Shown here in pieces: positions 19,712-59,016 of a stretch of DNA of 64,000 nt (position 1 is its first letter; each line of letters opens with the position of its first letter). The notes beneath the pieces are model-generated. The model saw only the letters and a program-made list of their open reading frames with translations, was not told the DNA's origin and ran no database searches. Source of the DNA: an uncultured virus (IMG/VR IMGVR_UViG_3300033553_000824) (taxonomy: Duplodnaviria; Heunggongvirae; Uroviricota; Caudoviricetes); the IMG/VR virus record IMGVR_UViG_3300033553_000824. One strand, given 5' to 3'. A program made the position numbers and the translations under genes.

Positions 19712-21565
19712 TTACGTTTCTTCGCCCATGACACCGGATATCCTACGATAGCCTTTGCTGATAATTGTGTTGAGCTCTTTCTCCGCATCAACCCTCGTCG
19801 CCGCGTCACTTTCGCTGACCAGCACTTTCATAAGCTCCAGTATTTTCTCATAATCTGCTACTGAAAACGTAGAAGATTTAAGTAGCGGCACTTGGGAGAT
19901 GCTACCTTTCACATGTTTCAGAGGTTGATTAAAAATAGTATAATACATGCGCTGATAAATATCAGAGTTAAGAACAGCTGCCACATATAAAAGGTTATCT
20001 GTTTCTGGGATAAGAAAATTACAGCTGTTAAGAGTTAATGTTCCTTTATCGTCCACACAGAACATAAGTTTCTTACCAATAAAATTATAAACAATTTTGG
20101 TTCTCTTATATAACCCAAGAGGAGCTTTCTGACGCATATCATCAAACTTCCCGTTCAGGAACCTGGTAGAAGACAACCGGTTAACTCTGTACGGTTCAGT
20201 GATGTTCTTTCCTGTAAGAACAGGTAACCTGTTCACCTTATCTGTGAGGAACTTTTTGTTATCACCAGTCACAATACCTAAACCCCAAGAGGTGTTCTCA
20301 GTGTTTAGATAAAACACGTGAGGTGACTTCTTTAGTGAACTTATGAGTTTCATTGTTTCGTCAGAAGCGAACAGATAGAAGTTGTTGTTAACAGCTTCCA
20401 AATATTCCCCCTGTAAAATAGTTCTGTCGGATGACAGCAGACCAGGGTGCACAAGACTAACCTTATCTGTACTCAACGAAACTTTGTTCCCAGGAAAACC
20501 ATTTCCTTTAATCCCAGTTAGCTGAACAGCCGGGGTCATTACTTTATCGAAAGCCCCACAATAATGCCGGATGCTTAATAACTGGTCGTTTATTAAAATG
20601 TGTTCACGGATATTCTGATGTCTTACAACATTCGTTACACTCTCAGGTAAAGTAACAGTGAACTGCCCACCGTCCTTCAACCAAGCTAAAATGTTATGAA
20701 CACCAACCGCGAACGTCTCATAATTATATGAAATGCCCAACTGTCCAGAAGGCCCCCATTCCCGTTTAGAGAGCTTAGCGCCCCAAGGAGGGTTAGTTAC
20801 CACAATGTCTAACTTGAAGTCGCCCACCGAGCTCACAGCAGCTAAAGAGTTCATCTCTACTGCGTTCAACACTATGTTCGGGTCGCCATAAAACTTAGAG
20901 AGTAAGAAAATATTATATTGAGCGATAAGTAAAGCAACCGGGTCTATATCACCAGCCCAGAACATACTTGGAGATACCTTAACACCAAGTTCTTTTAACT
21001 TCTGAACCATAAAAATAAGGTACCTACCTGAACCACTGAACGGATCACAAATCTTTGTAGTGTCAGTAACGTTGTCATAGTTAAGTTCAGAAACAGCTTT
21101 CATGATTATCTTCTCAGGGGTGTAATAAACCCCACCGATGTTCTTATCCTTCTCAAACAATATAGCCTCATAAAGAACACCCACCGCATCAACAACTCCA
21201 GGTATTATAAGGTCACGCGCAGAGGTAGCTACAAGTGTTATTGTTTCAGGGGTAACAGCTTCCCTCAACGCAGAAGGCAACTCCGCCAACAAAACACCAC
21301 GCTTCGTAGCATCCAAAACCACAGCCAACAACACAGCGTCTTTAGAAGACAAGTTATGTTTCTCAACGAAATCCACAAAACTAACTATAGTAACAAAATC
21401 TGTGTCCCCTAAAACCGTTTTAGGGATACTCTTACGTAAAGACATAGTTTTATTAGCCCCACGAGTCAACCGGGTGGCTTTAAGAGCATCCAAAGTCAGA
21501 GCACCATGAGTATCCGCGCCAGCTTTCAACCAGTTGCTCAACGTGCCCCCAGAAACGCTACTCAT
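19712..21565 (-). CDS. N6-adenine DNA methyltransferase (gamma class, TaqI-like C-terminal recognition domain)
   Basis: GVYYTP, DPFSGSG (motif I), GDID, NPPW (motif IV), AVLNS. Confidence 0.88.
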   Translation of the reverse strand: MSSVSGGTLSNWLKAGADTHGALTLDALKATRLTRGANKTMSLRKSIPKTVLGDTDFVTIVSFVDFVEKHNLSSKDAVLLAVVLDATKRGVLLAELPSALREAVTPETITLVATSARDLIIPGVVDAVGVLYEAILFEKDKNIGGVYYTPEKIIMKAVSELNYDNVTDTTKICDPFSGSGRYLIFMVQKLKELGVKVSPSMFWAGDIDPVALLIAQYNIFLLSKFYGDPNIVLNAVEMNSLAAVSSVGDFKLDIVVTNPPWGAKLSKREWGPSGQLGISYNYETFAVGVHNILAWLKDGGQFTVTLPESVTNVVRHQNIREHILINDQLLSIRHYCGAFDKVMTPAVQLTGIKGNGFPGNKVSLSTDKVSLVHPGLLSSDRTILQGEYLEAVNNNFYLFASDETMKLISSLKKSPHVFYLNTENTSWGLGIVTGDNKKFLTDKVNRLPVLTGKNITEPYRVNRLSSTRFLNGKFDDMRQKAPLGLYKRTKIVYNFIGKKLMFCVDDKGTLTLNSCNFLIPETDNLLYVAAVLNSDIYQRMYYTIFNQPLKHVKGSISQVPLLKSSTFSVADYEKILELMKVLVSESDAATRVDAEKELNTIISKGYRRISGVMGEET

Positions 21566-23964: not shown

Positions 23965-24231
23965 ATGAGAGCAAAACTCGAAAATGATGAAATAATTGTA
24001 TTAGGGCAAGAGAAATGCTGCTCAATGGGAGTGTGGAACATCTCCGCCAGGAAAGCCACTATCCACGGTAACATACTTCTTGGCGACCCCGGCGCTAAAA
24101 CCAAATGGGTGACACGCTACTGCTACCGACATGTAGACGAAGGCGTAGAACTACTCAGAGGGCAATTCAAAGGCGAATATCTCTTCGCCGTTACCAGAGA
24201 AACCTCAGATGCCTACTCTAACGACAGGTAA
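23965..24231 (+). CDS. Hypothetical protein
   Basis: GGAG RBS. Confidence 0.6.
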   Translation: MRAKLENDEIIVLGQEKCCSMGVWNISARKATIHGNILLGDPGAKTKWVTRYCYRHVDEGVELLRGQFKGEYLFAVTRETSDAYSNDR

Positions 24232-24327
24232 AATAGAGAAGGCTAATTCCCTATATAGATAATCATACTCAATCAGATAGGCTCAAACCAGACCGCATCA
24301 ACTACGACACAGAAATAAGGAACTAAC

Positions 24328-24465
24328 ATGAATGAATTCGGGGAAACACCAAGCATCTACGTTTGGCCCAAGAACCACGAGGAAGGCGAACCATTCCCAG
24401 AGGACTTCCGAGACCGACTAGACAAAGCGCTCGAAGCTGCAGGAATAGACTGGGAATACGTCTAA
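24328..24465 (+). CDS. Small hypothetical protein (45 aa)
   Basis: Manual translation MNEFGETPSIYVWP...AGIDWEYV; AAGGA RBS. Confidence 0.55.
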   Translation: MNEFGETPSIYVWPKNHEEGEPFPEDFRDRLDKALEAAGIDWEYV

Positions 24466-24641
24466 GAACCTCGCCTCACACAAAGCTGTTCCCCGCTCAT
24501 ACAGAGCCGGATGGCGAAAAGAGACATGCTTTGCTGCGCTTAGACATTTATATTTTTATGCGCACTTAACCTGCTGTAATAGTACCGATATTTGTTTTAA
24601 CAGGTATCCCCGTTTAATGGGTAAATAGTTTAAGGCTTTTT

Positions 24642-27600
24642 ATGACAGAGAATATTGAAGCAGCAACTAGTGTTTTAGATCCTCTTGTGGCGCAGCCTCT
24701 GAACCCTTATACTTATAAGCTCATTTATTGTTACACAGTTCCGGGCTCTTCGAGTCATGAGGGTTTATGTAAGATAGGTAAAACGAATTTCTCTACGAAC
24801 CGCCCTTTCGGTTCTTTAAGCCAAGATGAGATTGATGATTTGGTGAGTGTCGCAGCTGATAATCGCATTAAGCAGCAGCGGGGAACTATTAGTGTTAAAA
24901 CTCAAACCCATTGGGTTGAGAGTGTCGCTGGGTTGGCTGTAAGTAAATCATCTAGTGAACCGGATAATGTTTTCCGTCGTTGGTTGGAGCTTAAAGGCTA
25001 TAAGCAGGGTAGACCTAATGGGAGTGAAGGTACAGAATGGATGTATATCAGTCCTGAGGAAGCTCATGAGAAGTTTCAGGAGTTCAGTGCTGAAATGTCA
25101 TCGAAAGATGATGCCCTTAAACTTTCTTCAGAGTATCCAGCGGTTGTCCTCAGGAAAGAGCAGCAGCACTTTGTTGATAATACAACGGAAGCTTGGGAGA
25201 AAGGTCGGGAGGAGCGCCTGTGGTTCGCTAAGATGCGTTTCGGTAAAACAATCACAGCTTACTCTTTCTTGAAGAACATCCTACAGAAAGAGAACGCCCC
25301 TAAACGTATGTTAGTTCTCACTCACAGACCAGTTGTTAATGACGGTTGGCATAAGGATTTCCAGAAAGTTATGCAAGGTACCAACTGGGAGTACAGCAGT
25401 AAAGAACTGTCGGATGCTAAAAAATATGGGAACTCCAGAACCAAAACATTAAAGGAACTCGAAAAGAACAACACCCCGTACACCTATTTTGTGAGCATGC
25501 AGGATCTTCGCGGTAAAGACAAAATGTATAACAGTTTCAAACAAACCAACAAAGATATTTTTGACACCCCTTGGGATATTGTCATCATTGATGAAGCTCA
25601 CGAAGGTAACAGTACCGAACTGGCAGAACAGGTTCATGAGGGGCTTAACCGTAAATTCACTTTGTATCTCTCAGGAACCCCTTACAAACTTGTTGGTGGA
25701 GAAAGGTTCCCTCAAGAAGACATTGACACTTGGGATTACACTGATGAGCAAGAAGCTAAAGAACTGTGGGATACAAATCACCCGCATCTCGATAACCCCT
25801 ATGCTGTGCTACCTCAAATGTGGATCAACACTTTAGATATCCGTAAGAAACTCAAAGAAGAAATCCAAGAGGAATTCATTACAGAGAACGAAGACTCGGC
25901 GTTCGACTTTAATAAGTTCTTCGAAACTAAAGACGGTAAAACTTTCACCAATGAGAAGCACATACTCGGGTTCCTCAAACAAATCAAAGGCCCCGAAAGC
26001 AACAAAGGGTTCATGCCTTTCTCACCGCAACGACAACATCTCCTCAACCACACTTTATGGGCCCTCCCCAGCGTTAAAGCTTGTAAAGCAATGGAAGCAC
26101 TACTCAACCAACATGAGTTCTACTCAAAATACACAATACTGAACGTCTCAGGTGACGACGAAGCTGAAAGTAAAGCCCACCTCAACAAAGTTGAGAAAGC
26201 CATAAGCGACAAACCCAACGAAACTAAAACCATCACCCTCACTGTGGGTAGGTTAACAACAGGTGTTTCTATTCCAGCTTGGGTTGGTGTTCTTATGTTA
26301 AGGAACACTAACAGCCCGGAATTGTATATGCAAACTATTTTCCGCGTACAAACCCCGCACGAGTTAGATGGTGCCCGTAAAGAACACTGTTATGTTTGGG
26401 ATTTCGCTCCTGACCGTGTGCTAAAAGTGTTCACGGAAGCTAACGACATTTCAACTAAAGCAGGCGGGGCGACCTCTAATGACGGGCGTTTCAGCGAAGC
26501 GAACAAACGGAGCCTCAACAAACTCCTTAAGTACCTTCCAATTATTTCACGTACAACTTCAGAGGATTTACGTTTCGATGATGCTGGCAAAATTCTACGT
26601 CAACTCAAAAGAATATATGCTGAACGTGTCACCCGTTCAGGGTTCGACACTAACTTACTGTTCATAAAAGACCTGGGTGTTTTAACCCCAGAAATCCGTG
26701 AAGCTATAGAAGAAATCAGACAAACCAGCGGCAGCTCAACAAGTACCTCAAATAAACTTGATAAGAACATCACCATCGCTGCGAACGGTATGTTAGGTGG
26801 TAAAGATAAAACCACCCCACCAACAGATGAGGAGCTTGAAGCTCAAAGGAAAGAGCTCATACAGAGTTTGAAAGAGCCAGCGCTCACTGAAGAAGACAAA
26901 ACGGTTCTAAAAGAACAGAAAGAAGCTGTCAACAAAGAACAACAAGAGCGTTCACAGATCCGTAATGTTCTAAAAACCATTAGCGTAAGAATACCTTACA
27001 TGGTTATGGCGTTAATGTCAGACCAGCATTTCAAGAGAAACAAACTGGAAGATAACTTCACAATGAAAGAATTCGCTGATGCCATAGATGACGAATCTTG
27101 GAAAGAGTTCTTCGGTACTATAACTAAAGAAACTTTCAAAATGCTTGAACCTGCTTTTGACGCTGAAGTTCTACAAGTGTCAGTGAAAGACTGGATAGAC
27201 CAAACCGAGAAAGCTGTTAACCTACGTAACACAGATGTAGATGAATATATTAAAAGTATTCGTGAGCTGATGCTGAAAGTTAAAAACCCGAACAAAGAAA
27301 CAGTGCTCACACCCTTCGGCGTTGTAGAAATGGTTTACCATGCTGCCGGGTTCACCAATGATAAAACCGGGCAAAAGAAATGGGCTGAAACTCTCAAAAT
27401 GAAAGAACGCCAACACGTGGATGGTAACCATGAGAAACGACACCGCAGTTTTTATGATATTAACGTAAAAACAGGGTTCTTCCCACTCTACGCAGCATGG
27501 CAGCTTAGTAAAGCAGCGCAAAACAAATACGGCGACAAAGCATACAGTTGGGATAAAATATGTGACGAGCTAATATACGCTAACAGTCGCACCCTCGCAG

Positions 27601-29126
27601 CCAAATGGGTTACCTGCACACTCCTAGGTAAACCACGCGAATGGGACCACATCACCGTCATCGATGTCATAAAAGAGTTAGAGCAAGACGATATAAAAGA
27701 AAACTACAAATATTTCCAAGTGGGATACAAACTCACAAAACAATGGCAATCGAAAGGCAAACAACTCACAGATGAGCAGCTTCTTGAACGGATAGAACAA
27801 ACAGAAGTAAAAGTTAAAGAATACAGCAAAACATTAAATGAGAAAGTTAAGGCAGGCGACATGACAAGACAAGAGAAAGAGGAAGCTGTGAACACCAAAC
27901 GCAGCGAACTCACACAAGAGCTTGCTGACAACATAACAGACTTCAAATTCGATTACACTATCAGCAACCCGCCATATCAGATAGTCATGAATACAGCTAC
28001 GGGAAAGGCGTTTCCTATATGGCAAGAATTTATTTGGGTCGCCAATAGTAACTCTCGAAACATGGCTTTTATAAACCCAGCAAGATGGCTTAAGGGAGGC
28101 CAGGGAACAGGTTTGCTGCCAGTTAAAAACTGGCTACTAAGTAACCCTCATCTGAAAGAATTTATTACTATGCCTGGGGGAGAAGTATTTCCAAGTGCTG
28201 GAATAGCAGGCGGAGTGTCTATCGAAATTATTAACAACGGAGAAGAGTATGATAACCCATTACGAGGAGAATGGTCACCAGCTTCACAAAAGTGGATACA
28301 AAAACTAGCACCATATATACGAACAGAAGGCATAGATATTTCCCTTAACCCTGCAGATGAGGTTCTAATATCTAAAATTTTAGTTGCTAATATAGGTCCT
28401 AGTGTAGAGAGGAAGCTGTGGGTTGGAGGTCAGGATAACTCGGTAAAGGCTAAATCAAAGCATTCTGAATATGATAGTAACCGAGACTATACGCTGATGG
28501 GGCCCCGCCTGATTAGAGACACTCACTATTTTATTCTTGAGGAGGAAAAGCAAGCTGGACTTGACTATGTTAAAATCTGGTATAATGATAGGAGTCCTAA
28601 AGCAAGATTCTTACCGCGAGATGAATTCGTAGATAATGATATAAATAATAGTAGAATCCCTACTTGGAAAGCGCTAGTCCCCAAGACTAATGCTCATTTT
28701 ATTTACCGTAATCTTGGGCCTATCGGTGAACCCAGCTCCCTATCAACTAACACTTGGAACTGTATTAGCTTTGATAGCGAAGAAGAAGTTAAGAGTTATT
28801 ATTCTTACCTTAAAACGTACTTCTATCGTTACCTTATTAGCACCCGCACGGTATCCCATAACGCTTTAGCTAATGCTCACCGTTTCATTCCGGACCTGGT
28901 TGACATAGTTAACCCCCGCACCGGGAAGAAAGGCTACGAGTCTGATTGGACTGATGATGATTTACGTATCATTTTCAAAGATGTGCTAACGGATGACGAT
29001 TGGCGTTACATTAAGAAGAAAGCTGTTGAAGCTGATGGTGGCAAAGGTGATTATGAAGCCGGTTGGAAGTTTCCTGACGGTAGCAAACATAGTTCTTTAG
29101 TGCTCAAAGAAGATGTTGATGAGTGA
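24642..29126 (+). CDS. Fused nuclease (T5orf172/GIY-YIG-like), SF2 helicase and Eco57I-like adenine methylase/recognition domain; restriction-modification-like enzyme
   Basis: LIYCY...CKIGKT...RIKQQ...GTEW; AKMRFGKT, LTHRP, IIDEAH, LSGTP, QTIFRVQ; ETVLTP, DINVKTG, ISNPPYQ. Confidence 0.85.
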   Translation: MTENIEAATSVLDPLVAQPLNPYTYKLIYCYTVPGSSSHEGLCKIGKTNFSTNRPFGSLSQDEIDDLVSVAADNRIKQQRGTISVKTQTHWVESVAGLAVSKSSSEPDNVFRRWLELKGYKQGRPNGSEGTEWMYISPEEAHEKFQEFSAEMSSKDDALKLSSEYPAVVLRKEQQHFVDNTTEAWEKGREERLWFAKMRFGKTITAYSFLKNILQKENAPKRMLVLTHRPVVNDGWHKDFQKVMQGTNWEYSSKELSDAKKYGNSRTKTLKELEKNNTPYTYFVSMQDLRGKDKMYNSFKQTNKDIFDTPWDIVIIDEAHEGNSTELAEQVHEGLNRKFTLYLSGTPYKLVGGERFPQEDIDTWDYTDEQEAKELWDTNHPHLDNPYAVLPQMWINTLDIRKKLKEEIQEEFITENEDSAFDFNKFFETKDGKTFTNEKHILGFLKQIKGPESNKGFMPFSPQRQHLLNHTLWALPSVKACKAMEALLNQHEFYSKYTILNVSGDDEAESKAHLNKVEKAISDKPNETKTITLTVGRLTTGVSIPAWVGVLMLRNTNSPELYMQTIFRVQTPHELDGARKEHCYVWDFAPDRVLKVFTEANDISTKAGGATSNDGRFSEANKRSLNKLLKYLPIISRTTSEDLRFDDAGKILRQLKRIYAERVTRSGFDTNLLFIKDLGVLTPEIREAIEEIRQTSGSSTSTSNKLDKNITIAANGMLGGKDKTTPPTDEELEAQRKELIQSLKEPALTEEDKTVLKEQKEAVNKEQQERSQIRNVLKTISVRIPYMVMALMSDQHFKRNKLEDNFTMKEFADAIDDESWKEFFGTITKETFKMLEPAFDAEVLQVSVKDWIDQTEKAVNLRNTDVDEYIKSIRELMLKVKNPNKETVLTPFGVVEMVYHAAGFTNDKTGQKKWAETLKMKERQHVDGNHEKRHRSFYDINVKTGFFPLYAAWQLSKAAQNKYGDKAYSWDKICDELIYANSRTLAAKWVTCTLLGKPREWDHITVIDVIKELEQDDIKENYKYFQVGYKLTKQWQSKGKQLTDEQLLERIEQTEVKVKEYSKTLNEKVKAGDMTRQEKEEAVNTKRSELTQELADNITDFKFDYTISNPPYQIVMNTATGKAFPIWQEFIWVANSNSRNMAFINPARWLKGGQGTGLLPVKNWLLSNPHLKEFITMPGGEVFPSAGIAGGVSIEIINNGEEYDNPLRGEWSPASQKWIQKLAPYIRTEGIDISLNPADEVLISKILVANIGPSVERKLWVGGQDNSVKAKSKHSEYDSNRDYTLMGPRLIRDTHYFILEEEKQAGLDYVKIWYNDRSPKARFLPRDEFVDNDINNSRIPTWKALVPKTNAHFIYRNLGPIGEPSSLSTNTWNCISFDSEEEVKSYYSYLKTYFYRYLISTRTVSHNALANAHRFIPDLVDIVNPRTGKKGYESDWTDDDLRIIFKDVLTDDDWRYIKKKAVEADGGKGDYEAGWKFPDGSKHSSLVLKEDVDE

Positions 29127-29763
29127 AGTACCTAGTGGCGACCGACTGTCAGGAGCCCAGTGGAGACGAATAAAGGGAAGTGTCAAATTTGTTAAGCTTT
29201 ATGTAAAAACGTATTTAAGATTCCTAGATAACTACAAACTCGAAAACATTAACTCTCGCAGTAGCGTGGAGAAAAATTTCGAAGATAAGCAATCGTTAGC
29301 TAATGACATGGTTTACCTGAAAGACAACAAAGCAGCTTTCTTTCGTTGTTTGAACGGCATTTTGAAGCAAGACCCTCCGGGCGGAATAATTGCTAGAAGA
29401 GATAAATCAGGACTTATTCCAATTAGAATAAGCTTGGAACAGGCTATAGGGTACCCGCTAAAGCCTGACGCCGCCGTGGACTTCCTGTTATTACGCGCGC
29501 CGGATGGTGGTATAAGTGTTCAGGCACTGAAAGAGAGCCTAGGTTCTATATTGGAAGTCAGTGAGGATTATATAATCGCGGCCCAAAAAAGGAAAAAAAG
29601 TATTGGATACTTTTTCGCTAATACGTTATCTATCTCGAAGGAAAGTGGCTCAAGTAATACAGCCGGAATAGGTTCTTGGATAAAACCGGTCATTATAGGT
29701 GTCGTCGTAGTGATCGTTTCGGCACTTATTCTCCCATGCTTAACAACATATTTTCCGGGTTAA
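29113..29763 (+). CDS. Hypothetical protein with C-terminal TM helix, inside the RM-like locus
   Basis: Overlaps the stop of the 1494-aa gene; hydrophobic C-terminus. Confidence 0.6.
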   Translation: MLMSEVPSGDRLSGAQWRRIKGSVKFVKLYVKTYLRFLDNYKLENINSRSSVEKNFEDKQSLANDMVYLKDNKAAFFRCLNGILKQDPPGGIIARRDKSGLIPIRISLEQAIGYPLKPDAAVDFLLLRAPDGGISVQALKESLGSILEVSEDYIIAAQKRKKSIGYFFANTLSISKESGSSNTAGIGSWIKPVIIGVVVVIVSALILPCLTTYFPG

Positions 29764-29808
29764 TAAGAGTGGTATAATTGACGAGAAGACAGGAGGTGTA
29801 TTAATATA

Positions 29809-31254
29809 ATGAGCAAGCCCAGGGTTAGACTCAACACCCCGCTACAGAAGCACAGTCAGGGTTTATGTGGTTGTAGTTTTACTGTCAACCCTAACTTTTG
29901 TGTTTATCAACCGTTTTTGGATGGTTGGGATTTCACTTCTGATGTTGGTAATGGCGGTAAGCGTGGTGAGATTTTCACTCCTCGTTTCATTGTTGATAAA
30001 ATGATTGTAGATTCGGGGATGCTCCCTGAAGCCGCTGTGTATGATTATGATTACACTACGTTGTCTAAAGCTGATGCTCTGAAAGTTGTTCGCGCTAAAA
30101 TCAATGAACCTGCTATTGGTACCGGTAATTTCTCTTCAACTATTTTGTGGCATAAGGTCCATTATGTTGATTTTGTGTCACGTAACAAAACTGGGCGTTT
30201 AGATTTGAAGAAATATAACCTTCATCTGTTGGAAGCTATAGCTAGCATGTATTCGAATGATATTGATGTTGGTAACCTGGAAGCCTCTAAATGGCGTTTC
30301 CTGCGTTTAGGTGGTATTTACACTGAGAAGAACGTTGAGTTCTGGGTTGACCATATTTTGAACACTTTGGATGTTGAACTTAACTTTGAGAACTTACTAC
30401 TGGAGAATGAAACTTACAGCATGAAAGTTCTGGGTGAGTTTTTCACTTCAATGGCTGTCGTAGCTGACGCTAAAACAAACGAAGCAAGCACAGTTGTAGA
30501 GGAAACCGACACCGAACCTGTGTCTGAAAGTTCCGCTCCTGAGGCCTTAAAAACACATCTTGAACAACTATCCGAGGAGGAGACGAAAGTCGCTCAGACG
30601 ACCGTACAGGCCCTGCTGAAAGCAGATATTGAGACCCAAGTGCGCGCTAGTCTCACAGCAGCTGATGAGAACTGGGCTGCTGCCGATGAGGACAGAGGTA
30701 TCATAGATGTTCTATACAAAAAACACACCGGTCAGAACCCAACTTTAGCTACCAGGGAACTATGGAAACACATACTTGATGAGAACATGAAACTCTTCAA
30801 CGGTATAATAGAAGACGACACTATAGACGTTGAGAACAACTTTATTGTCCCCGGTTGGTTTAACATCAACTGGACCTGGTGGGGTTTCAGCAACTGGGCT
30901 GCTCCTAAAACAGGGCAAGAAGGTGAAATCTCAGTTGACATCCAAGAAACACGTGTACCCCTAGCGAAACAAATCCTAGAAGGCAAACTAGCTAACCTCA
31001 AACAAGAGATACTGACCTTAGAAGAAAAACGTGTACCAGAAGCTGAAGGCACCACAACTAAAGCCTTAGATATTAAAACAGAACCTAAACTAGTTTTCGC
31101 AGATGATAAAGACAAGAAAACTTACACAGAGAAGCAACGCCAAGTACGTGTCACCGAGAAGAAAATAAAACAAATCGAAACCGGTAAACTAGAAATAGAG
31201 TACGCCCCCATGGAAGCTCTCACCATGGAAGCAGACCAGGGTAGTTTATTCTAA
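29809..31254 (+). CDS. Methyltransferase-like SAM-binding subunit lacking an NPPY motif
   Basis: GEIFTP...VDKM, EPAIGTGNF (motif I), YSNDID; no NPPY/DPPY seen. Confidence 0.7.
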   Translation: MSKPRVRLNTPLQKHSQGLCGCSFTVNPNFCVYQPFLDGWDFTSDVGNGGKRGEIFTPRFIVDKMIVDSGMLPEAAVYDYDYTTLSKADALKVVRAKINEPAIGTGNFSSTILWHKVHYVDFVSRNKTGRLDLKKYNLHLLEAIASMYSNDIDVGNLEASKWRFLRLGGIYTEKNVEFWVDHILNTLDVELNFENLLLENETYSMKVLGEFFTSMAVVADAKTNEASTVVEETDTEPVSESSAPEALKTHLEQLSEEETKVAQTTVQALLKADIETQVRASLTAADENWAAADEDRGIIDVLYKKHTGQNPTLATRELWKHILDENMKLFNGIIEDDTIDVENNFIVPGWFNINWTWWGFSNWAAPKTGQEGEISVDIQETRVPLAKQILEGKLANLKQEILTLEEKRVPEAEGTTTKALDIKTEPKLVFADDKDKKTYTEKQRQVRVTEKKIKQIETGKLEIEYAPMEALTMEADQGSLF

Positions 31255-31284
31255 GGCCTTCAATTCAATATGATTATAATAATG

Positions 31285-31290
31285 CCGATA
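31285..31290 (+). promoter_or_regulatory. CCGATA promoter-like motif in the AT-rich leader of the CRISPR-like array
   Basis: TCAA-N15-GCCGATAT resembles the sigma28 consensus TAAA-N15-GCCGATAA; same motif precedes more than 20 genes. Confidence 0.6.
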
Positions 31291-31480
31291 TTTATAACTG
31301 TACTTAAATTTTAGGTTCAGCTAGGCTTAAGGGCCTGGTATTTGAGTACTTTCCCCGCTCAGGCGGGGCTGAAACCATTAGCGCAATCAGAGAGCATATA
31401 TGATCTGAATGTTCCCCCGCTTAGGCGGGGCTGAAACTCCGTTCCGGCAAAAGTCCGAGGCGAAGAGATTGGGATTTATA

Positions 31481-31705
31481 ATGAGTGTAATATCCAAGGA
31501 AGACTGTCCCCCAAAGGGTAATACGATATTTCTTATGGCGCTGTTAGGTGCCGTCTTGCTGTTCGGAAAGAATGAGCAGCCGCAGCCTAGGGAGCAGTGG
31601 TATGACAAAGGGTCTAAGGCTGAGGCCGTTGTCGTTCGCGCGCTACTCAGCGCGCTCATCATCTTATTCCTCACTGATGCGCTACTGTACCTGTTCTTAT
31701 TGTAG
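31481..31705 (+). CDS. Possible 74-aa two-TM membrane protein within long spacer 1
   Basis: Two hydrophobic segments; stop ends 1 nt before repeat 3; no clear RBS and a competing minus-strand ORF. Confidence 0.4.
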   Translation: MSVISKEDCPPKGNTIFLMALLGAVLLFGKNEQPQPREQWYDKGSKAEAVVVRALLSALIILFLTDALLYLFLL

Positions 31706-31752
31706 AATGTTCCCCGCTCAGGCGGGGTTGAAACCACAAACTTTAGTATTTG

Positions 31753-31941
31753 TTAACCCCTCACTTCGAACTCGCAAAGCGCCCAGGCCTTAGCAGCGTC
31801 ATAGCGTGTACTTGGTGATGACAAAGGGAGCACGTTCATCTGCCGCATGAGGTAGTTATAAGCGTTCATCTGCTCCCTGCTTGGGGGAGCGCCAAAGTGC
31901 CACTTGTAGGCGTCGAAGACTACTTGCTCAATCGGGGTCAT
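31753..31941 (-). CDS. 62-aa hypothetical protein within long spacer 2
   Basis: AAGGAG RBS at 31948-31953 and a sigmaA-type promoter upstream. Confidence 0.75.
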   Translation of the reverse strand: MTPIEQVVFDAYKWHFGAPPSREQMNAYNYLMRQMNVLPLSSPSTRYDAAKAWALCEFEVRG

Positions 31942-31968
31942 AATGTTCTCCTTGTTAGGTACCTCTAA

Positions 31969-31997
31969 AGTATGCCATACCTTCAGGAGCATGTCAA
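31969..31997 (-). promoter_or_regulatory. Sigma70/SigA-type promoter inside long spacer 2
   Basis: TTGACA (31997-31992), 17 nt, then CATACT (31974-31969) with extended -10 TG. Confidence 0.75.
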
Positions 31998-32144
31998 GTG
32001 TTGCGTGGTAGGAGTCCTGGAATAACATGTTCCCCGCTCAGGCGGGGCTGAAACCAGCTTAGTTAACATAAAAAGAGGATTAAGGCGGCTCTATAATACT
32101 GAGCCGTTAGATAAGTGAGAACCAATCAAAGGAAGATGATACTA

Positions 32145-32435
32145 ATGGGAAAATACGATCACACTAATAAGAAGGAACTCTCTTCAGTCATGTACGGGGT
32201 TAAAGCTAACTCGAACCGGTACCCGGCTGACATAGCTGATTACGCTGATGGTGTCCTTAAATCTGATTTCCTCCCTGAGTACGCTTCTCATGTTCTTGAG
32301 GTTGCTGCTAGGGAAGTGAACACCATGGAGTTAGATGGTCTGTTCGGTGGTAAACTATCTGGGGTTGAAGTTGTTGCTCTTAGGAATGTTATTAGCAAAT
32401 GGTTGCTGTCTGAAGCTAATGAGGCGCTCCAATAA
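32145..32435 (+). CDS. Hypothetical protein
   Basis: CGTTAG motif at 32105; AGGA RBS. Confidence 0.65.
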   Translation: MGKYDHTNKKELSSVMYGVKANSNRYPADIADYADGVLKSDFLPEYASHVLEVAAREVNTMELDGLFGGKLSGVEVVALRNVISKWLLSEANEALQ

Positions 32436-32564
32436 TAGTTGGTGCTGTCCCACGATAGTTTGGGTTGTCCCACGATAGTTTGGGTTGTCCCACGATAGTT
32501 TGGGTTGTCCCACGATAGTTGGCGCTGCCCCACAATAGTTGGTACTGTCCCACAATAGTTGGGT
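32435..32564. repeat. 20-bp tandem repeat, about 6.5 copies
   Basis: ATAGTTTGGGTTGTCCCACG three exact copies flanked by variants; intergenic. Confidence 0.95.
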
Positions 32565-32640
32565 AGCGTAGGGGCATAAAAAAGTGTGAACCCCTGCCCG
32601 TTAGATAAGTTGAAGGTTACATTATTAGAGGAGATTTGTT

Positions 32641-33063
32641 ATGTTCGGTAGAGATAATGGCGGTTTGAACAGTAAGTTCGTTCCTGTTTTAACAACAGGA
32701 AGGATTGAAGCCTCAAATTTTAAGGGAGTTAAGTCTTTACCTTCAGTTCCTTTGGATACGTTATCTCTTTATCTTCACGGTAAAGTGAAAGGTGTTACCC
32801 GTATTGGCAATCCGGAGCAGATTATGTCGCTCATAGAGCAAGGGGGTTTCGGTGATGTTGTGGGTTTATGGGTAAAAGATGACGGTCGTGTCTCCAAAAT
32901 GGCTGTGTTTAACAGGGAAGGTAAGATTCTGGATAACTGGTGGGAGGACATCACTAAGGAGCTAAAAGAGGACGCTGTGTTCGGGTATCGTTATGATGTA
33001 GGCCGGTATGTTATGTTAGCTGGTCCTGATATAGATTTAGTTGATCTTATAAAGAGTCTCTAA
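32641..33063 (+). CDS. Hypothetical protein, family A
   Basis: MFG start, GGFGDVVGLW, FNREG, YVMLAGP. Confidence 0.75.
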   Translation: MFGRDNGGLNSKFVPVLTTGRIEASNFKGVKSLPSVPLDTLSLYLHGKVKGVTRIGNPEQIMSLIEQGGFGDVVGLWVKDDGRVSKMAVFNREGKILDNWWEDITKELKEDAVFGYRYDVGRYVMLAGPDIDLVDLIKSL

Positions 33064-33095
33064 CTAACATATTTTACTGACAAGGAGATACATTT

Positions 33096-33290
33096 ATGAG
33101 TACGAGCATAGAGGATTATGTAAAGTTTTTAGCTAAACCTATGAAAGATAAAGATATGTCTGAAGCACGTAACGTAGCTGCTGCGGATTTGAAGGTAAGT
33201 AACCCTGGTATATACGATATGGTTGTTGAGAAAATAGCGGAATATAAGAAAGAGTTCCCTGAAAGTGAATATTTTTATTTGAAAGTTTAG
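33096..33290 (+). CDS. Hypothetical protein
   Basis: AAGGAG RBS. Confidence 0.65.
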   Translation: MSTSIEDYVKFLAKPMKDKDMSEARNVAAADLKVSNPGIYDMVVEKIAEYKKEFPESEYFYLKV

Positions 33291-33472
33291 CGAAAATGGT
33301 TTCCATTTATTACTGATATTCTAGTATAGAAGCTACTCCAGGAGTTGAAGTCGATTATGGACAAAGAAGATACAGGAAAAGAAGTTCTTATCACTAGTTC
33401 TGTTGGGGACATACAGTTAGAGGGTTTCGGTTTAGCCAGGAATATAGAGGTTTTCGAAATGAAGGAGCAGGT

Positions 33473-33667
33473 ATGACTATCAAACAAGGTGATCGTGTAG
33501 CGGATATGGATGAGGGGCTTGCTATGCTCCGACAGATTATGGGCACTGGTGAACCTAACCATCATGGAACAGTTAGTGAAGTTATTGGGGATACAGCTTA
33601 TATTTTGTATGATGATGACCAGTGCGCTCCGTGCCCTGTTTCTCAACTCGTTAAGTTGGATGAATAA
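33473..33667 (+). CDS. Small hypothetical protein, possibly SH3-like
   Basis: AAGGAG RBS; GDRV...GTV.EV.G..AYI. Confidence 0.65.
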   Translation: MTIKQGDRVADMDEGLAMLRQIMGTGEPNHHGTVSEVIGDTAYILYDDDQCAPCPVSQLVKLDE

Positions 33668-33790
33668 CAGTTTTCGGTTGAGTGCTTTAATGTAGCTGTA
33701 ACCAGCAAGGTTAACATGTCAACTCCCGTCCGTTAGGATTAAGTAAAGAGCTATTAGGTAAGCTGAATTTCCAGAAGGAGTCGTAACAAT

Positions 33791-34006
33791 ATGAGTAGAA
33801 CAGTAAAGTTAGAGAATAAAGATAGTGTGTTTCTTATAATGAGCCCGGATGAGCACACTGCTCTTCATTTTTTCCTGTTAGAGCTTAATAAAATGAGCCC
33901 GGTAGAAGCTCGTGCTAGTTTAGCTAAAATCAATGTGTCTTTAGCTTCAAATGAGGTTGAGAACTTAATGGGTTTAGACACCTCAGTTCAAAAATCCCGC
34001 CACTGA
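33791..34006 (+). CDS. Hypothetical protein
   Basis: AAGGAG RBS; CGTTAG upstream. Confidence 0.65.
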   Translation: MSRTVKLENKDSVFLIMSPDEHTALHFFLLELNKMSPVEARASLAKINVSLASNEVENLMGLDTSVQKSRH

Positions 34007-34022
34007 CCTTAAGGAGCAAAAC

Positions 34023-34178
34023 ATGACTGTTCAACGCAAAATAGTAATCAATGTTGTAGCTGATTTTCAGGAAGATGTTGATGCGCTTTTTGATGCTATC
34101 GCCACTGTTGTTAACAACACAGGGGTGTACCCAACTCTGATGGTTGATATGTTCACTGGACTGGTGTCTGATGACTGA
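34023..34178 (+). CDS. Small hypothetical protein (51 aa)
   Basis: AAGGAG RBS; manual translation MTVQRKIVINVVADF... Confidence 0.6.
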   Translation: MTVQRKIVINVVADFQEDVDALFDAIATVVNNTGVYPTLMVDMFTGLVSDD

Positions 34179-34560
34179 TAACTCGCCAACATATTATGTG
34201 GATTATAAACCTGTCACCGTAACGCGTTATGATGGTGACCCTGAACCTGTCAACAACCTGCTTAACGATCTGTTCCTTCAGTCCGGAGTTGAAGTTTGCC
34301 CTGGTCAGTGGATTGTACAGCATGAAGACGGTAGGGTTGAAGTTCGTAACACCGAACCACCAAGAGTTGAGAAGTGGGAATGGGCTGTCTCAGTTTACGG
34401 AGCTGAACCTATGATAAAAAACAATGAAGCTGATGCTCGTCTTCTCGAAGGTGAAGATTTCCCACAAGGCTGGGCTGTTGTGAAACGCCCTGTTATTCGC
34501 ACTGGAACTGGCTCTAGGGACACTTGGACTGGACCTTGGCAGGAAGCAAACAGCAAATAG
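34171..34560 (+). CDS. Phage-type hypothetical protein
   Basis: Overlaps the previous stop (ATGACTGA). Confidence 0.65.
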   Translation: MTDNSPTYYVDYKPVTVTRYDGDPEPVNNLLNDLFLQSGVEVCPGQWIVQHEDGRVEVRNTEPPRVEKWEWAVSVYGAEPMIKNNEADARLLEGEDFPQGWAVVKRPVIRTGTGSRDTWTGPWQEANSK

Positions 34561-34762
34561 TTGAACCCGAAAAATTAGGGAACGACTAAGAGAATGAACG
34601 AGAGCGGATTTGAGAAAGTCAAACTAACCCGTCAGCAGATGATTGATCTGTTAGCTGAAGACACCAGGGAGAACACAAACTGGGATGAGGTAATCCACCT
34701 TGATGGTAACGGTAACACCCCCGTTATCTGAGGAAGCTATGTGGGGGATGTCCGACTAAGCG

Positions 34763-35002
34763 TTAAGGCATCAAGTTAGGATATAATCTTCCCTGGTTGT
34801 TCTCACTGATGATAACACCGTTCTCAACAATAGCGTAAGCCCCGTTCTGTACGTTCACAACCCTGTCAGTGTTTTTAGTTCCAACAGCAAGGTCAAAAGT
34901 GAGTGCCCATCCGATTAGAATATTATCACAATATGCGGCGTAACCGTGACGTGTAACCTGCCCTAGTTCTTTTTGCATTTCAGCGTGAGTTTCTTTATCC
35001 AT
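34763..35002 (-). CDS. Hypothetical protein
   Basis: 79-aa ORF. Confidence 0.5.
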   Translation of the reverse strand: MDKETHAEMQKELGQVTRHGYAAYCDNILIGWALTFDLAVGTKNTDRVVNVQNGAYAIVENGVIISENNQGRLYPNLMP

Positions 35003-35687
35003 GTGGTCCAGTGTAGCATAACCAATGGGCGATAGTCAAGGTCAATTCAACTCATGGTAAGTAATAGTCTAATAGTTGCAGTTTTCGCTTAGGGTTTTTG
35101 GCTTGCGGGGGTTTATCAGTTCGGTGAGTACCGAGGTTTGCCCATTAACAATAAGTTCCAACGGAGGATTGGTAGTGTCATTATCTGCCATGATTAACTC
35201 CTTTTTAGAACATATATTTACCTTTTACCAGGTGTTGTGTCGATATCCGTGAAATCTTCGAATTCAAAATCTTTTATAAGGCCAACTCCGGGGAAATACA
35301 CATCTGCTTTAACTGTGTATTCGGAAGTTCCCTGGGTATCAGACATTGTAATGTTCCTTAGCTTACTTGTTATATATCGGTATCCGGCAAAATCAATAAA
35401 CTCAAACCCGATATTCATTATATGTACTAAGCGGGAGTTGCTGATGTCTCAACCTAATGAAGTTCCAATCAAAACCGTTGATATGAGTTTTGAGGGTATC
35501 GGAGTTTTTACTGGAATTGAAGTGCGAGATCTTTCAGTTTTAGACACTAAATGAACCGGTGCGTTCCCTCATATTCATCATACGCTGTGAGTTGTTTACA
35601 TGATGAAAGTTTCAGCTTGTTCCCATTGTTTTCTCCGTTAGAGTAAACTTTAGTTATGAACAACAAAAATAGGTAGGTATATAACGA

Positions 35688-35921
35688 ATGGCTAATCCCG
35701 CTCCCACTGTAGATCAGGTGCGACAAGCTTTTGAACTTGCACATGAACTAACTGGCGCCTCACTCGACCCGTCAGATTTTGACCGTTTCTTAGCTGAATA
35801 CGCTGGAACAGTTATAGATGAAGCTATTCAAGCTTACTGGGCTGATCTTACATTAACGCGTTTCCCCGAAACAGCTGAGTGGATGAAAAAACATGCGACT
35901 TACATTAGGAGACAAAAATGA
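35688..35921 (+). CDS. Hypothetical protein
   Basis: CGTTAG upstream; overlaps the next gene. Confidence 0.65.
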   Translation: MANPAPTVDQVRQAFELAHELTGASLDPSDFDRFLAEYAGTVIDEAIQAYWADLTLTRFPETAEWMKKHATYIRRQK

Positions 35922-36217
35922 TGAGCGGAATTTACGCCCGTAACCATAAGTGGTTATCTTATTGCGACTGTGATGGTAAGAACAGGTGGGAAAGTGCTCC
36001 TGGTACTGTAGAGGAAGCATTTGTGGCCCTCACTAAACATCACGCATCTGAGCATAAACATGGCGGGGTTGTTGAACGTGAGGACATGTGGATAGCGTAT
36101 TGTGACGAAGGTGACGGTTGGACTAGTGAACCAGGTTCAGGGGCTGAAGCATGGGCGGATTTAGCTGAACATCATGAAACTGAACATGTTCATGAGGTTA
36201 TTGAAGAGAACAGATAA
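35918..36217 (+). CDS. His/Cys-rich protein with internal duplication
   Basis: W..YCD...W.S.PG...EA...L..HH..EH twice. Confidence 0.7.
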   Translation: MMSGIYARNHKWLSYCDCDGKNRWESAPGTVEEAFVALTKHHASEHKHGGVVEREDMWIAYCDEGDGWTSEPGSGAEAWADLAEHHETEHVHEVIEENR

Positions 36218-54292: not shown

Positions 54293-54534
54293 AAAGACAA
54301 GCGGCTGGGGCAATAACGAAACTCACTTGTTATTCTTTCGGTTTGTGTTGAATCTATATTGTTAACCCTGACAACAGAAACCAGTTCCCGTGGGAGTTAC
54401 TTAACTACGGCGCGTAAGCTTGTTTTCTTCACTTAGCCTATTCAGTACGATACCGATACTATCCCCCACCCGGCATTAGAAAGCAGAATAAATTAACTAC
54501 ACTCACTAAATTCCTGTTATTAAAACTGAGTACC

Positions 54535-54585
54535 AGACACATTAAAACATGCCTAAAGGCCCCTTAGACATAATATAACATGTCT
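54535..54585. promoter_or_regulatory. Paired 20-bp imperfect palindromes, 31-bp period (site 1 of 3)
   Basis: AGACACATTAAAACATGCCT and AGACATAATATAACATGTCT. Confidence 0.65.
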
Positions 54586-54599
54586 GGAAGAAGAGAAAC

Positions 54600-55007
54600 C
54601 TATAGTTTAACTACTTCTTTCCCGTCTGAGCTAAGAACCGTTACCTTAGTGAACCCAGCATCAAAAATATAATTATACTCCTCACCTAAAGATTCAAGAT
54701 CCTCTAAAGAAGCAAACTTCTGCATATCAGCAACATCATCCATGTCCGTATAATAATTACCAATAAGAGGCTCATGCTGAATATGATCACCAGCCATTGC
54801 ACTCACCTTAGAAGGGTCCTTACAAATAGAAGACCACCCGGCGTGCTCAAAAATCTTATCCAACAGTTTCTTATATGAACCATTGAAATTCGATTCAGCT
54901 AAACCAGTCAAATCCTCCAACACCGAATCCCCATCCCAATGAACATAAACCCCATAAAATGTTCCATTAGTAGCATCTTCCTTCAAAATAGTGGCATTAG
55001 TTGACAT
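54600..55007 (-). CDS. Phage-type hypothetical protein
   Basis: MST.A.I...VYVHWDG N-terminus; AAGGAG RBS. Confidence 0.75.
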   Translation of the reverse strand: MSTNATILKEDATNGTFYGVYVHWDGDSVLEDLTGLAESNFNGSYKKLLDKIFEHAGWSSICKDPSKVSAMAGDHIQHEPLIGNYYTDMDDVADMQKFASLEDLESLGEEYNYIFDAGFTKVTVLSSDGKEVVKL

Positions 55008-55274
55008 ACTGCTCTCCTTTTATAGCTCTGATATATTACAGTTATTATCCTAACGGACGTATCCTAAATAGCCTAGATATATATTCAATATTGTGGGCAC
55101 CTTAACACGCACAAAGATACAGTACGGGGTTTCGAACTTTATCGTGAACATCTAACATAATATAGTTCTGTAAAAACCCTGGCGGCGAAAACAGCGTTAC
55201 TCTTAAATTAGCTAATAAACCTTGAAGCTGCGGATAGAGAAGCTACCAACTGATGTAACACAATATAACAAAAG

Positions 55275-55688: not shown

Positions 55689-55926
55689 CATCGGCTTCCA
55701 CCTACTGTAAGGGGGCGTTGCCTGGCCGATAATGAAGACATCATTAGAGTTCCGGGATTTTGCTAAATACAAAAACCCCTGTGCGGAAGGAACGCCAGAA
55801 AACAATTCACCCACAACAACAGAAGAGCCCCTAATTAGACCCTCAACCTCTTCGTAACTATGTATAAGACATATTGCAGCGTAACCGCGCCGATAGGATT
55901 AACATAACAAGAAAGGCATTAAACCA

Positions 55927-58940: not shown

Positions 58941-59016
58941 AACAAACCATGGGGCTGATTGAGTAGCAACGAAAGAGCCCCTAATCAGACCCTCAACTCT
59001 TAATAAACTACATCTG

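What the first reader, a model, noticed from the sequence alone, without database searches (positions are those of the whole stretch)
31348..32055. Type I-E-like CRISPR array whose spacers are gene-sized cassettes
Seen: four 29-30-nt repeats with the type I-E layout (CCCCGC-N4-GCGGGG hairpin, 8-nt tail) separated by 32, 268 and 291 nt. The long inserts are about 50% GC by manual count against about 40% nearby, are not whole multiples of a 61-nt repeat-spacer unit, and each holds an ORF that stops inside it. No cas gene lies in the window. Known: I-E Cas1-Cas2 normally inserts about 32-33 nt, and Cas6e cuts at the base of each hairpin. Inference: this may be an integron-like gene-capture platform using CRISPR repeats as insertion sites, or a Cas6-processed source of long mRNA, antisense or decoy RNAs.
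Basis: partly seen in the sequence, partly recalled or inferred. Interest (0 to 1): 0.92.

Follow-up and report, generated by a model that had tools for sequence, protein, structure and literature searches.

The report
CRISPR repeats bracketing two small genes
A large, mostly unknown mobile-element-like DNA from a cold spring carries four copies of a type I-E CRISPR repeat without any cas gene: one normal repeat-spacer-repeat unit followed by two repeat-flanked small genes, most likely a device that exploits or jams its host's CRISPR system rather than a gene-capture platform.

Summary
Four copies of ATGTTCCCCGCTCAGGCGGGGCTGAAACC(A) lie at 31348, 31409, 31707 and 32027. They are the only such hairpins in 64 kb (4 found, 0.02 expected).

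- **Family:** they are 19-23/29 identical to repeats of genuine type I-E arrays. One of these arrays lies beside a full I-E cas operon.
- **Layout:** R1-R2 form one canonical 29+32 nt unit. The next two intervals (268 and 291 nt, GC 0.50 against 0.43) hold no decayed repeats. Each holds one small gene.
- **Genes:** one is a 74-aa hydrophobic ORF on the + strand that ends 1 nt before R3. The other is a 62-aa gene on the - strand with its own promoter-like site and a Shine-Dalgarno-like AAGGAGA. It has one full-length relative elsewhere.
- **Assembly:** independent contigs from two samples bridge the locus without a difference.
- **Missing:** no cas gene, integrase, protospacer, RNA evidence or syntenic relative was found.

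Best reading (0.45): an orphan I-E mini-array plus extra Racr-like repeat units, interleaved with small cargo genes, which acts through the host's Cas6e/Cascade. The integron-like capture idea has no support. None of 76 viral I-E repeat loci showed this architecture, so I rate it a new variant of a known kind.

The parts
31255..31347 (+). AT-rich leader-like spacer between the stop of the 481-aa gene and R1 (GC 0.33)
   Evidence: The consensus scan reported no + strand promoter here. A TATAAT at 31275-31280 is my own reading of the sequence.
31348..31376 (+). Repeat R1 (ACTTTCCCCGCTCAGGCGGGGCTGAAACC); two changes in its first three bases
31377..31408 (+). Spacer S1, 32 nt, GC 0.375. R1-R2 start-to-start distance is 61 nt, the period of real I-E arrays.
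   Evidence: No protospacer in the window, in phages or in plasmids.
31409..31438 (+). Repeat R2, 30 nt: one extra C before the stem, loop TTAG, tail ends CT
31481..31705 (+). ORF1, 74 aa from ATG 31481. The gene call on record starts at the ATG inside R2 (31409) and gives 98 aa (P0002). It has two hydrophobic stretches (GRAVY 0.53). Its stop codon ends 1 nt before R3. I saw no promoter of its own.
   Evidence: It has no relative in two searches. Its frame scores best of the six frames, but the codon score is about 0.
31707..31735 (+). Repeat R3 (one change: first tail base C to T). It lies between the two convergent small genes.
31753..31941 (-). Gene for P0001, 62 aa, predicted three-helix protein. 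AAGGAGA lies before its ATG, and its stop is 16 nt from R3.
   Evidence: One full-length relative, P0049 (69 aa): E 2.7e-5 in the library search; 33/69 identical, pairwise E 5e-17. AF2 mean pLDDT 68.
31969..31997 (-). Promoter-like site TTGACA-17-CATACT with TG, reading towards P0001. It lies 29 nt from R4.
32027..32055 (+). Repeat R4, identical to the consensus of the four

Best explanation
The locus is a cas-less offshoot of a type I-E CRISPR array, carried by a large mobile-element-like replicon. It consists of a one-spacer mini-array (R1-S1-R2) followed by two further repeat units (R3, R4). Two small cargo genes are interleaved between these repeats.

**Proposed working (inferred, not shown).**
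1. Rightward transcription from the AT-rich leader gives one RNA that runs R1-S1-R2-ORF1-R3-(antisense of P0001)-R4.
2. In a host with a matching I-E system, Cas6e cuts after each GCGGGG stem.
3. This yields one canonical 61-nt crRNA, which arms host Cascade with a guide chosen by the element. The guide could target a competitor or act as a regulator.
4. It also yields two long RNAs capped by repeats. With the surplus repeats, these bind Cas6e/Cas5e/Cas7e unproductively, as published RNA anti-CRISPRs (Racrs) do.
5. The two small proteins are co-located cargo. They are candidates for anti-defence or anti-CRISPR function, as in published acr-racr operons.

**Shown:** the repeat family, the geometry, the integrity of the hairpins, the reality of the assembly and the reality of gene P0001.

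**Inferred:** transcription, Cas6e processing, the host, and any anti-CRISPR or targeting activity.
For: **Repeat family and geometry.**
- The repeats belong to the I-E family. Identity to the consensus repeats of 21 genuine 61-nt-period arrays is 19-23/29.
- L053 (23/29) lies directly after an I-E cas operon on the same strand.
- R1-S1-R2 has exactly the 29+32 geometry of those arrays.

**Hairpin integrity.** All four hairpins are intact. There are 0 substitutions in 48 stem positions against 6 in 72 other positions (one-sided Fisher p = 0.043).

**Mobile-element context.**
- No cas gene was found in the window.
- It holds no tRNA.
- It holds a type ISP/IIG restriction-modification gene whose relatives sit mostly on plasmids.
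- It holds a weak ParA-type match and a 7 x 20-bp iteron-like array 370 nt downstream.
- Most ORFs have no family.

**Published precedent.**
- Solitary I-E repeat units and mini-arrays on viruses and plasmids are known: 2,103 viral and 90 plasmid SRUs.
- acr genes are enriched within 1 kb of SRUs. An acrIC5 homologue sits 11 nt before racrIC1 in one operon. RacrIE1/2 are active. All of this is from PMC10651486 (passages and section 9 read).
- Two- and three-spacer I-E Cracr arrays are described in bioRxiv 10.1101/2024.10.29.618823 (sections 7-8 read).
- Here ORF1 ends 1 nt before R3.

**Cargo genes.**
- P0001 is a real gene, with a full-length relative.
- Both inserts have atypical GC and codon usage for this replicon. 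This fits acquired cargo.
Against: - **No host or matching array.** The exact repeat is absent from 185,579 species genomes, from the JGI metagenome contigs and from IMG/VR.
- **No target.** S1 has no protospacer in the window, in phages or in plasmids.
- **No + strand promoter.** The consensus scan found none.
- **No known anti-CRISPR match.** Neither small protein matches a family in Pfam, PHROGs or PADLOC. P0001's model matches no PDB structure at E <= 0.001. These libraries are not dedicated Acr collections.
- **ORF1 is hydrophobic.** To my knowledge (recalled, from no call) described Acr proteins are mostly soluble.
- **The repeats are not solitary.** They therefore fail the SRUFinder definition.
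- **The layout has no parallel.** None of 76 viral loci with canonical I-E repeats has repeats bracketing a gene-sized, ORF-bearing interval. The published classes do not cover this layout.
- **Only 64 kb of a 151,304-nt contig was visible**. cas genes could lie outside the window.
Confidence: 0.45

Rival explanations
1. Rearranged relic. An orphan I-E array was picked up from a former host and later broken by recombination or insertion of unrelated DNA. The repeats have no present function, and the small genes merely landed between them.
For: - No cas gene, target or RNA evidence was found.
- The leader-proximal repeat R1 is altered and R2 carries an indel.
- Genuine arrays do contain long irregular gaps. 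L013 has a 404-nt gap two repeats from its end, and L041 and L007 have repeat-to-repeat spacings of about 1.3 kb.
- The locus is identical in both samples, so no turnover is seen.
Against: - All four stems are perfect, while the flanking positions vary (p = 0.043).
- The last repeat is the consensus rather than the usual degenerate terminal copy.
- Both long intervals are of similar size. Each holds exactly one compact gene that abuts a repeat (1 nt and 16 nt from R3). Random breakage would not be expected to give this.
Confidence: 0.25
2. Cas6e-dependent RNA punctuation. The repeats serve as processing and stabilising signals for the embedded genes. ORF1 mRNA is released with a 5' handle and a Cas6e-bound 3' hairpin. 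Read-through RNA antisense to P0001 then controls that gene. Expression of the cargo would depend on whether the host has an active I-E system.
For: - ORF1 is in the sense orientation and lacks a recognisable promoter of its own. It starts 41 nt after R2 and stops 1 nt before R3.
- P0001 lies antisense to the array, with its own promoter-like site.
Against: - No RNA data exist.
- I found no natural precedent in the literature searches.
- ORF1 has no relative and only a neutral codon score, so it may not be translated.
Confidence: 0.12
3. Not CRISPR-related. The four hairpins are intergenic terminator/insulator or REP-like elements that resemble I-E repeats by chance.
For: - R3 sits between two convergent genes, and R2 and R4 sit at gene boundaries.
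- Single CCCCGC-N4-GCGGGG-NTGAAAC hairpins occur once per locus in 30 of the 56 fetched genome loci.
Against: - Identity to real I-E repeats extends beyond the stem: 19-23 of 29 positions, including GTTCCCCGC and the TGAA.CC tail.
- R1-R2 reproduce the 61-nt I-E period exactly.
- No further copy exists in 64 kb.
- No T-run follows the stems, and the terminator scan did not report them.
Confidence: 0.08
4. Integron-like platform. CRISPR repeats act as insertion or recombination sites at which gene cassettes are captured and exchanged.
For: - Two gene-sized, GC-richer, codon-atypical segments each carry one gene and are bounded by direct repeats.
- A relative of one cargo gene exists elsewhere, on a 1,619-nt contig of unknown context.
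Against: - Neither an integrase, a Cas1 nor a transposase family appears in the ORFs scanned.
- The two samples show no variation.
- Loci related through the upstream gene have no repeats.
- 0 of 76 viral I-E repeat loci has such cassettes.
- From established knowledge (recalled): I-E Cas1-Cas2 measures about 33-bp prespacers.
Confidence: 0.05

Closest known systems
Virus- and plasmid-borne CRISPR mini-arrays (one or two spacers, no cas). Review PMC11656645, passages read.
   Same: R1-S1-R2 is a cas-less unit with one spacer of full length (32 nt) on a mobile-element-like replicon. In my own census, 22 of 76 viral I-E repeat loci had exactly two repeats.
   Different: - Published mini-arrays have repeats identical to the host's, and their spacers target related elements. 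Here neither host nor target is known.
- Two more repeats follow at 298 and 320 nt (start to start), with genes between them.
RNA anti-CRISPRs (Racr) / solitary repeat units, including acr-racr operons. PMC10651486; abstract, passages and section 9 read.
   Same: - Repeat mimics on a mobile element without cas genes.
- A small gene directly followed by a repeat unit: ORF1 stop, 1 nt, then R3. Compare acrIC5, 11 nt, then racrIC1.
- I-E Racrs have been shown to work.
   Different: - The units here are not solitary.
- No promoter is evident directly upstream of R3 or R4.
- The neighbouring genes match no known acr.
- Activity is untested.
Viral Cracr arrays (crRNA-like regulators). bioRxiv 10.1101/2024.10.29.618823; abstract and sections 7-8 read.
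   Same: Multiplexed I-E repeat units on phages and plasmids. They are processed by host Cas6e, and some units are aberrantly processed because of single-base indels in a repeat. R2 here has a one-base insertion.
   Different: - Cracr pseudo-spacers are short (21 and 24 nt in the tested I-E array) and match cas or toxin promoters.
- S1 is 32 nt and its target is unknown.
- Cracr arrays have no gene-sized intervals.
CreTA / CrePA (CRISPR-repressed toxin-antitoxin). bioRxiv 10.1101/2024.01.05.574328, passages read.
   Same: A repeat-spacer-repeat unit followed by a small ORF. ORF1 is small and hydrophobic, which is toxin-like by eye.
   Different: - CreA's pseudo-spacer matches the toxin promoter next to it, beside a PAM.
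- S1 has no seed match near ORF1. The best matches anywhere in the window are 10-nt seeds, at chance level.
- CreTA modules sit inside cas loci.
Chromosomal type I-E CRISPR arrays (for example L053, with Cse2-Cas7e-Cas5e-Cas6e-Cas1e-Cas2e).
   Same: Repeat sequence family, stem-loop, 29-nt repeat with 32-nt spacer, and orientation.
   Different: - Only one canonical unit, and no cas genes in 64 kb.
- The tail CTGAAACC(A) has one more A than the ATGAACCG of the arrays.
- Two intervals of 268 and 291 nt carry genes.
Integrons
   Same: Direct repeats bound single-gene segments of foreign-looking composition.
   Different: I found no intI-type recombinase. The repeats are 29-nt CRISPR repeats. Integron attC sites are longer imperfect palindromes (recalled). 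One cargo gene has its own promoter-like site. No cassette variation was observed.

Membership tests
Type I-E CRISPR repeat family | Repeat of about 29 nt with a GC stem CCCCGC/GCGGGG, a 4-nt loop, a 5' GTTCCCCGC and an 8-nt tail that ends AACC | tested here: met
   19-23/29 identical to the consensus repeats of 21 periodic arrays. Fold shown. L053, with the 23/29 repeat, lies beside I-E cas genes. The tail has one extra A.
Type I-E CRISPR array | Regular 61-nt repeat-spacer period over several units | tested here: not met
   Only R1-R2 are 61 nt apart. The other start-to-start spacings are 298 and 320 nt, with no hidden repeats.
Type I-E CRISPR-Cas locus | Adjacent cas genes (cas3, cse1, cse2, cas7e, cas5e, cas6e, cas1e, cas2e) | tested here: not met
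   No Cas family in Pfam (103 ORFs) or PADLOC (64 ORFs). The remaining ~87 kb of the contig were not available.
MGE-borne CRISPR mini-array | One or two spacers flanked by repeats, on a virus or plasmid, with no cas genes | tested here: met
   R1-S1-R2. The mobile-element nature is inferred from gene content, not proven.
MGE-borne CRISPR mini-array | Repeats match the host's array, and the spacer targets a related element | tested here: inconclusive
   The exact repeat was not found in genome, metagenome or viral collections. No protospacer was found. The host is unknown.
Racr / solitary repeat unit | Repeat-like unit in an intergenic region of an MGE, not associated with other repeats | tested here: not met
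   Four units lie within 708 nt. R3 and R4 are each separated from the next unit by 268-291 nt, but they are not solitary.
Racr / solitary repeat unit | Binds Cas6/Cas7 and inhibits interference | not testable with these tools
   This needs expression and phage or plasmid challenge assays.
CreTA-like module | Pseudo-spacer partly complementary (PAM-proximal) to the promoter of the adjacent toxin gene | tested here: not met
   No seed match near ORF1. The best seeds in the window are 10 nt, at unrelated places.
Integron | Tyrosine-recombinase integrase with attI, and cassettes bounded by attC | tested here: not met
   No integrase or recombinase family among the scanned ORFs. The repeats are CRISPR repeats.

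The most novel reading that the evidence does not exclude
The repeats are working punctuation and exchange points for cargo genes. The element borrows host Cas6e to cut one transcript into three products:
- a guide crRNA;
- a stabilised ORF1 mRNA;
- a long antisense/decoy RNA that also soaks up Cas7e.

The repeat-bounded genes can move between this element and CRISPR arrays by recombination at the repeats. That would be a natural, CRISPR-repeat-based cassette system.
Probability: 0.07. Interest if true: 0.85.

Novelty: new variant of a known kind. Interest (0 to 1): 0.5.

Why it matters
Mobile elements are known to carry single CRISPR repeats (Racrs), mini-arrays and regulatory crRNA mimics. 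A locus that combines a true one-spacer unit with further intact repeats wrapped around protein-coding genes is not among the layouts I found described (literature searches). It was also not among the 76 viral I-E repeat loci I examined.

If the repeats are processed, the locus would link RNA-based and protein-based counter-defence in a single transcript. It would also point to two new small proteins (P0001 and ORF1) as candidates for anti-CRISPR or other anti-defence activity against type I-E systems. If it is a relic, it documents how arrays decay on mobile elements.

Tried and rejected
**Decayed repeat-spacer units.** Sliding the 30-nt consensus over both inserts gave at most 17/30 and 16/30 matches. 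That is background level: 60 + strand and 36 - strand positions in the window reach 16 or more.

**Misassembly.** Rejected on the bridging contigs.

**Rfam.** No family at gathering score over the window. Only 5 chance-level matches at E <= 10 in 31200-32700, and none is a CRISPR family.

**DNA similarity.**
- No match for 31200-32200 in phages.
- No match for 24000-36000 or 31255-32640 in plasmids.
- Spacer S1 gave only chance-level hits, E 0.7 to 9.

**Self-targeting or self-complementarity.**
- S1 matches nothing else in the window with up to 9 substitutions.
- Seeds are at most 10 nt.
- Neither insert has a match longer than 13 nt elsewhere in the window.

**Relatives for synteny.**
- The upstream 481-aa protein has 43 relatives.
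- Only 4 loci could be fetched, L057-L060. None has the hairpin. Only the type ISP gene and the 481-aa gene are shared.
- Viral-contig scans with P0005, A1, P0001 and P0049 returned no locus.
- Scans with the looser repeat patterns found 0 and 2 viral loci. Neither of the two is related to this locus.

**Function of the small proteins.**
- No Pfam, PHROGs or PADLOC family.
- The Atlas gave only weak small-helical look-alikes for P0001 and nothing for ORF1.
- The AF2 model of P0001 is of low confidence (pLDDT 68). Foldseek against the PDB gave nothing at E <= 0.001.

**Expression.** No RNA holder is listed, and the one metatranscriptome run of the study (X3) laid nothing on the stretch. This is not evidence either way.

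Full report
**What is there**

The stretch 31348-32055 contains four direct copies of a 29-30-nt sequence:
- R1: ACTTTCCCCGCTCAGGCGGGGCTGAAACC
- R2: ATGTTCCCCCGCTTAGGCGGGGCTGAAACT
- R3: ATGTTCCCCGCTCAGGCGGGGTTGAAACC
- R4: ATGTTCCCCGCTCAGGCGGGGCTGAAACC

The hairpin motif CCCCGC-N4-GCGGGG, with up to one mismatch, occurs four times in the 64 kb on both strands. All four are here. The expectation from shuffles is 0.02, and 0 of 100 shuffles reached four. Each copy folds as a 6-bp stem with a 4-nt loop at -12.5 to -13.0 kcal/mol.

The long intervals have GC 0.498 and 0.497. The flanks have 0.428 and 0.434, and the window has 0.422. That puts them in the top 5.5% of 280-nt windows, which is unusual but not extreme.

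**Is it an assembly artefact or a decayed array?**

It is not an assembly artefact. Independently built contigs of two runs from a cold spring metagenome study bridge the locus without a difference:
- X1: 8,568 nt, covering 30900-32475.
- X2, another sample: 1,108 nt, covering 31368-32475.

X1 may be the source sample. The two samples also show no variation, so nothing speaks for turnover.

It is not a decayed array either. Sliding the consensus over the inserts gives at most 17/30 and 16/30 identities. At least 96 other positions in the window reach that level. The start-to-start distances of 298 and 320 nt are not multiples of 61.

**Which repeat family?**

The exact repeat is absent from three collections:
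- IMG/VR;
- one genome for each of 185,579 species;
- the JGI metagenome contigs.

A looser pattern found 56 genome loci. Of these, 21 are regular arrays with a 61-nt period and a consensus of the form GTGTTCCCCGC-N4-GCGGGGATGAACCG. The window's repeat matches those consensus repeats at 19-23 of 29 positions without gaps.

The best-matching locus is L053 (23/29). It lies directly downstream of, and on the same strand as, genes that NCBIfam names Cse2, Cas7e, Cas5e, Cas6e, Cas1e and Cas2e of type I-E. So the repeats are type I-E repeats in + orientation. R1-S1-R2 (29 + 32 nt) reproduces the I-E unit exactly. The tail CTGAAACC(A) has one A more than the arrays' ATGAACCG.

**What lies in the long intervals?**

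Interval 1 holds a + strand ORF.
- The gene call on record starts at the ATG inside R2 (98 aa, P0002).
- I think ATG 31481 is more likely, giving 74 aa with two hydrophobic stretches (GRAVY 0.53).
- Its stop codon ends 1 nt before R3.
- I see no promoter of its own.
- It has no relative in the 5.8-billion-protein search and no usable hit in the Atlas.

Interval 2 holds a - strand gene for a 62-aa protein (P0001).
- A promoter-like TTGACA-17-CATACT with TG lies at 31997-31969.
- AAGGAGA precedes the ATG (read).
- The exhaustive profile search found one relative besides itself: P0049, 69 aa, E 2.7e-5.
- P0049 aligns from first to last residue with 33/69 identities. P0001 is therefore a real gene.

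In both intervals the proposed frame has the best codon score of the six. The scores are -0.01 and 0.05, against 0.14-0.24 for five other small genes of the window. This agrees with the higher GC in suggesting acquired DNA.

No function emerged for either protein.

**Context**

The window has no tRNA and no Rfam family. The proteins on record place it on a contig of 151,304 nt. Most ORFs have no family.

Recognisable genes:
- a 1,494-aa helicase-methylase at 24642-29126. PADLOC calls it type IIG, and its 30%-identical relatives sit mostly on plasmids of Bacillota;
- a second methylase at 19712-21565;
- a weak ParA-type match at 6443-7306;
- Tpt1, LemA, an M48 peptidase, ornithine cyclodeaminase and an HNH/zinc-finger nuclease.

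Seven 20-bp tandem units, iteron-like, begin 370 nt after R4. I read this as a large plasmid or phage. That is an inference.

No Cas, integrase or transposase family was found among the 103 ORFs scanned in Pfam or the 64 scanned in PADLOC.

**Comparison with relatives and with other viral I-E repeat loci**

The upstream 481-aa gene has 43 relatives. The four fetchable loci share only that gene and the type ISP gene. They have no such hairpin.

To see whether the layout recurs, I fetched 76 IMG/VR loci with canonical I-E repeats. I then counted repeat copies within 1.5 kb, allowing up to 4 substitutions:
- 20 loci have one copy;
- 22 have two;
- 15 have three;
- 19 have four or more.

Only two loci have a spacing above 150 nt:
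- L061: a 503-nt AT-rich gap with no ORF of 32 aa or more.
- L090: a 124-nt gap.

None has repeats bracketing a gene.

**Interpretation**

Published work describes four related things:
- solitary repeat units that act as RNA anti-CRISPRs, often beside acr genes and sometimes in one operon with them (PMC10651486);
- mini-arrays used in conflicts between elements (PMC11656645);
- multiplexed I-E Cracr arrays (bioRxiv 10.1101/2024.10.29.618823);
- CreTA/CrePA modules (bioRxiv 10.1101/2024.01.05.574328).

The locus fits best as a combination of the first three: a cas-less I-E mini-array with surplus intact repeats and co-located small cargo genes, acting through the host's Cas6e/Cascade.

Weak support for maintained hairpins comes from the substitution pattern: 0 in 48 stem positions against 6 in 72 others (p = 0.043).

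The CreTA test failed, because S1 has no seed match near ORF1. The integron test failed, because there is no recombinase. Transcription, processing, host and activity remain untested. I therefore give the best reading 0.45 and a non-functional relic 0.25.

**Verdict**

The I-E call and the claim that the intervals are not decayed units both hold. The integron-like reading is unsupported. The decoy/processing reading stays open.

The thing is a new variant of known mobile-element CRISPR offshoots. It is of moderate interest (0.5). Its main value lies in two candidate anti-defence genes and an unusual repeat-gene-repeat layout.

Noticed in passing
window 32428-32567: Seven tandem 20-bp units (TCCCACGATAGTTTGGGTTG and variants). 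They overlap the last codons of ORF 32115-32435 and precede ORF 32641-33063. They look like iterons or a centromere-like site. Contig depth rises here only because the words repeat.
   Followed up: partly
window 24642-31254: A type ISP/IIG-like helicase-methylase (1,494 aa) is followed by a 216-aa ORF and a 481-aa protein with methyltransferase-like motifs (GEIFTPRF, EPAIGTGNF; motif names are my reading). In L060 the end of a 67%-identical type ISP gene is followed directly by a homologue of the 481-aa gene. The pair may be one restriction-modification unit.
   Followed up: partly
L057, L058 (contigs of 727,571 and 681,631 nt, GC 0.36 and 0.34): Homologues of the 481-aa protein sit on very long, low-GC metagenome contigs. 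Other relatives lie on contigs of 552-715 kb. I did not determine what these replicons are.
   Followed up: no
window 54534-60333, and 55849-56823 and 58443-58483: Repeated 40-90-nt upstream segments before several small genes (families D12, D13, D16, D19), plus many tandem paralogues (D1, D2, D4, D7, D8). This suggests repeated promoter/leader modules and gene duplication in this replicon.
   Followed up: no
window 343-518: Three tandem 56-nt units at 75-78% identity, of unknown role.
   Followed up: no
L013 (Rhodocyclus purpureus scaffold), reverse strand, between repeats 80 and 81 of 81: A genuine I-E array has a 404-nt gap two repeats from its end. The gap is of ordinary composition (GC 0.63). 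This shows that long non-spacer intervals do occur in real arrays. Its content was not analysed.
   Followed up: no
L090 and L138 (IMG/VR contigs): L090 has an I-E repeat, then 124 nt, then a one-spacer mini-array, all with the same ATGTTCCCCGC start as here. L138 has two I-E-like repeat units 55 nt apart in a 62% GC viral contig, and so resembles a short-spacer Cracr-type unit.
   Followed up: no
window 31409-31480: The extra C in R2 puts the repeat's own ATG in frame with ORF1. The gene call on record (98 aa, P0002) therefore begins inside the repeat. The ATGs of R3 and R4 open only 13- and 11-codon frames (my reading).
   Followed up: partly
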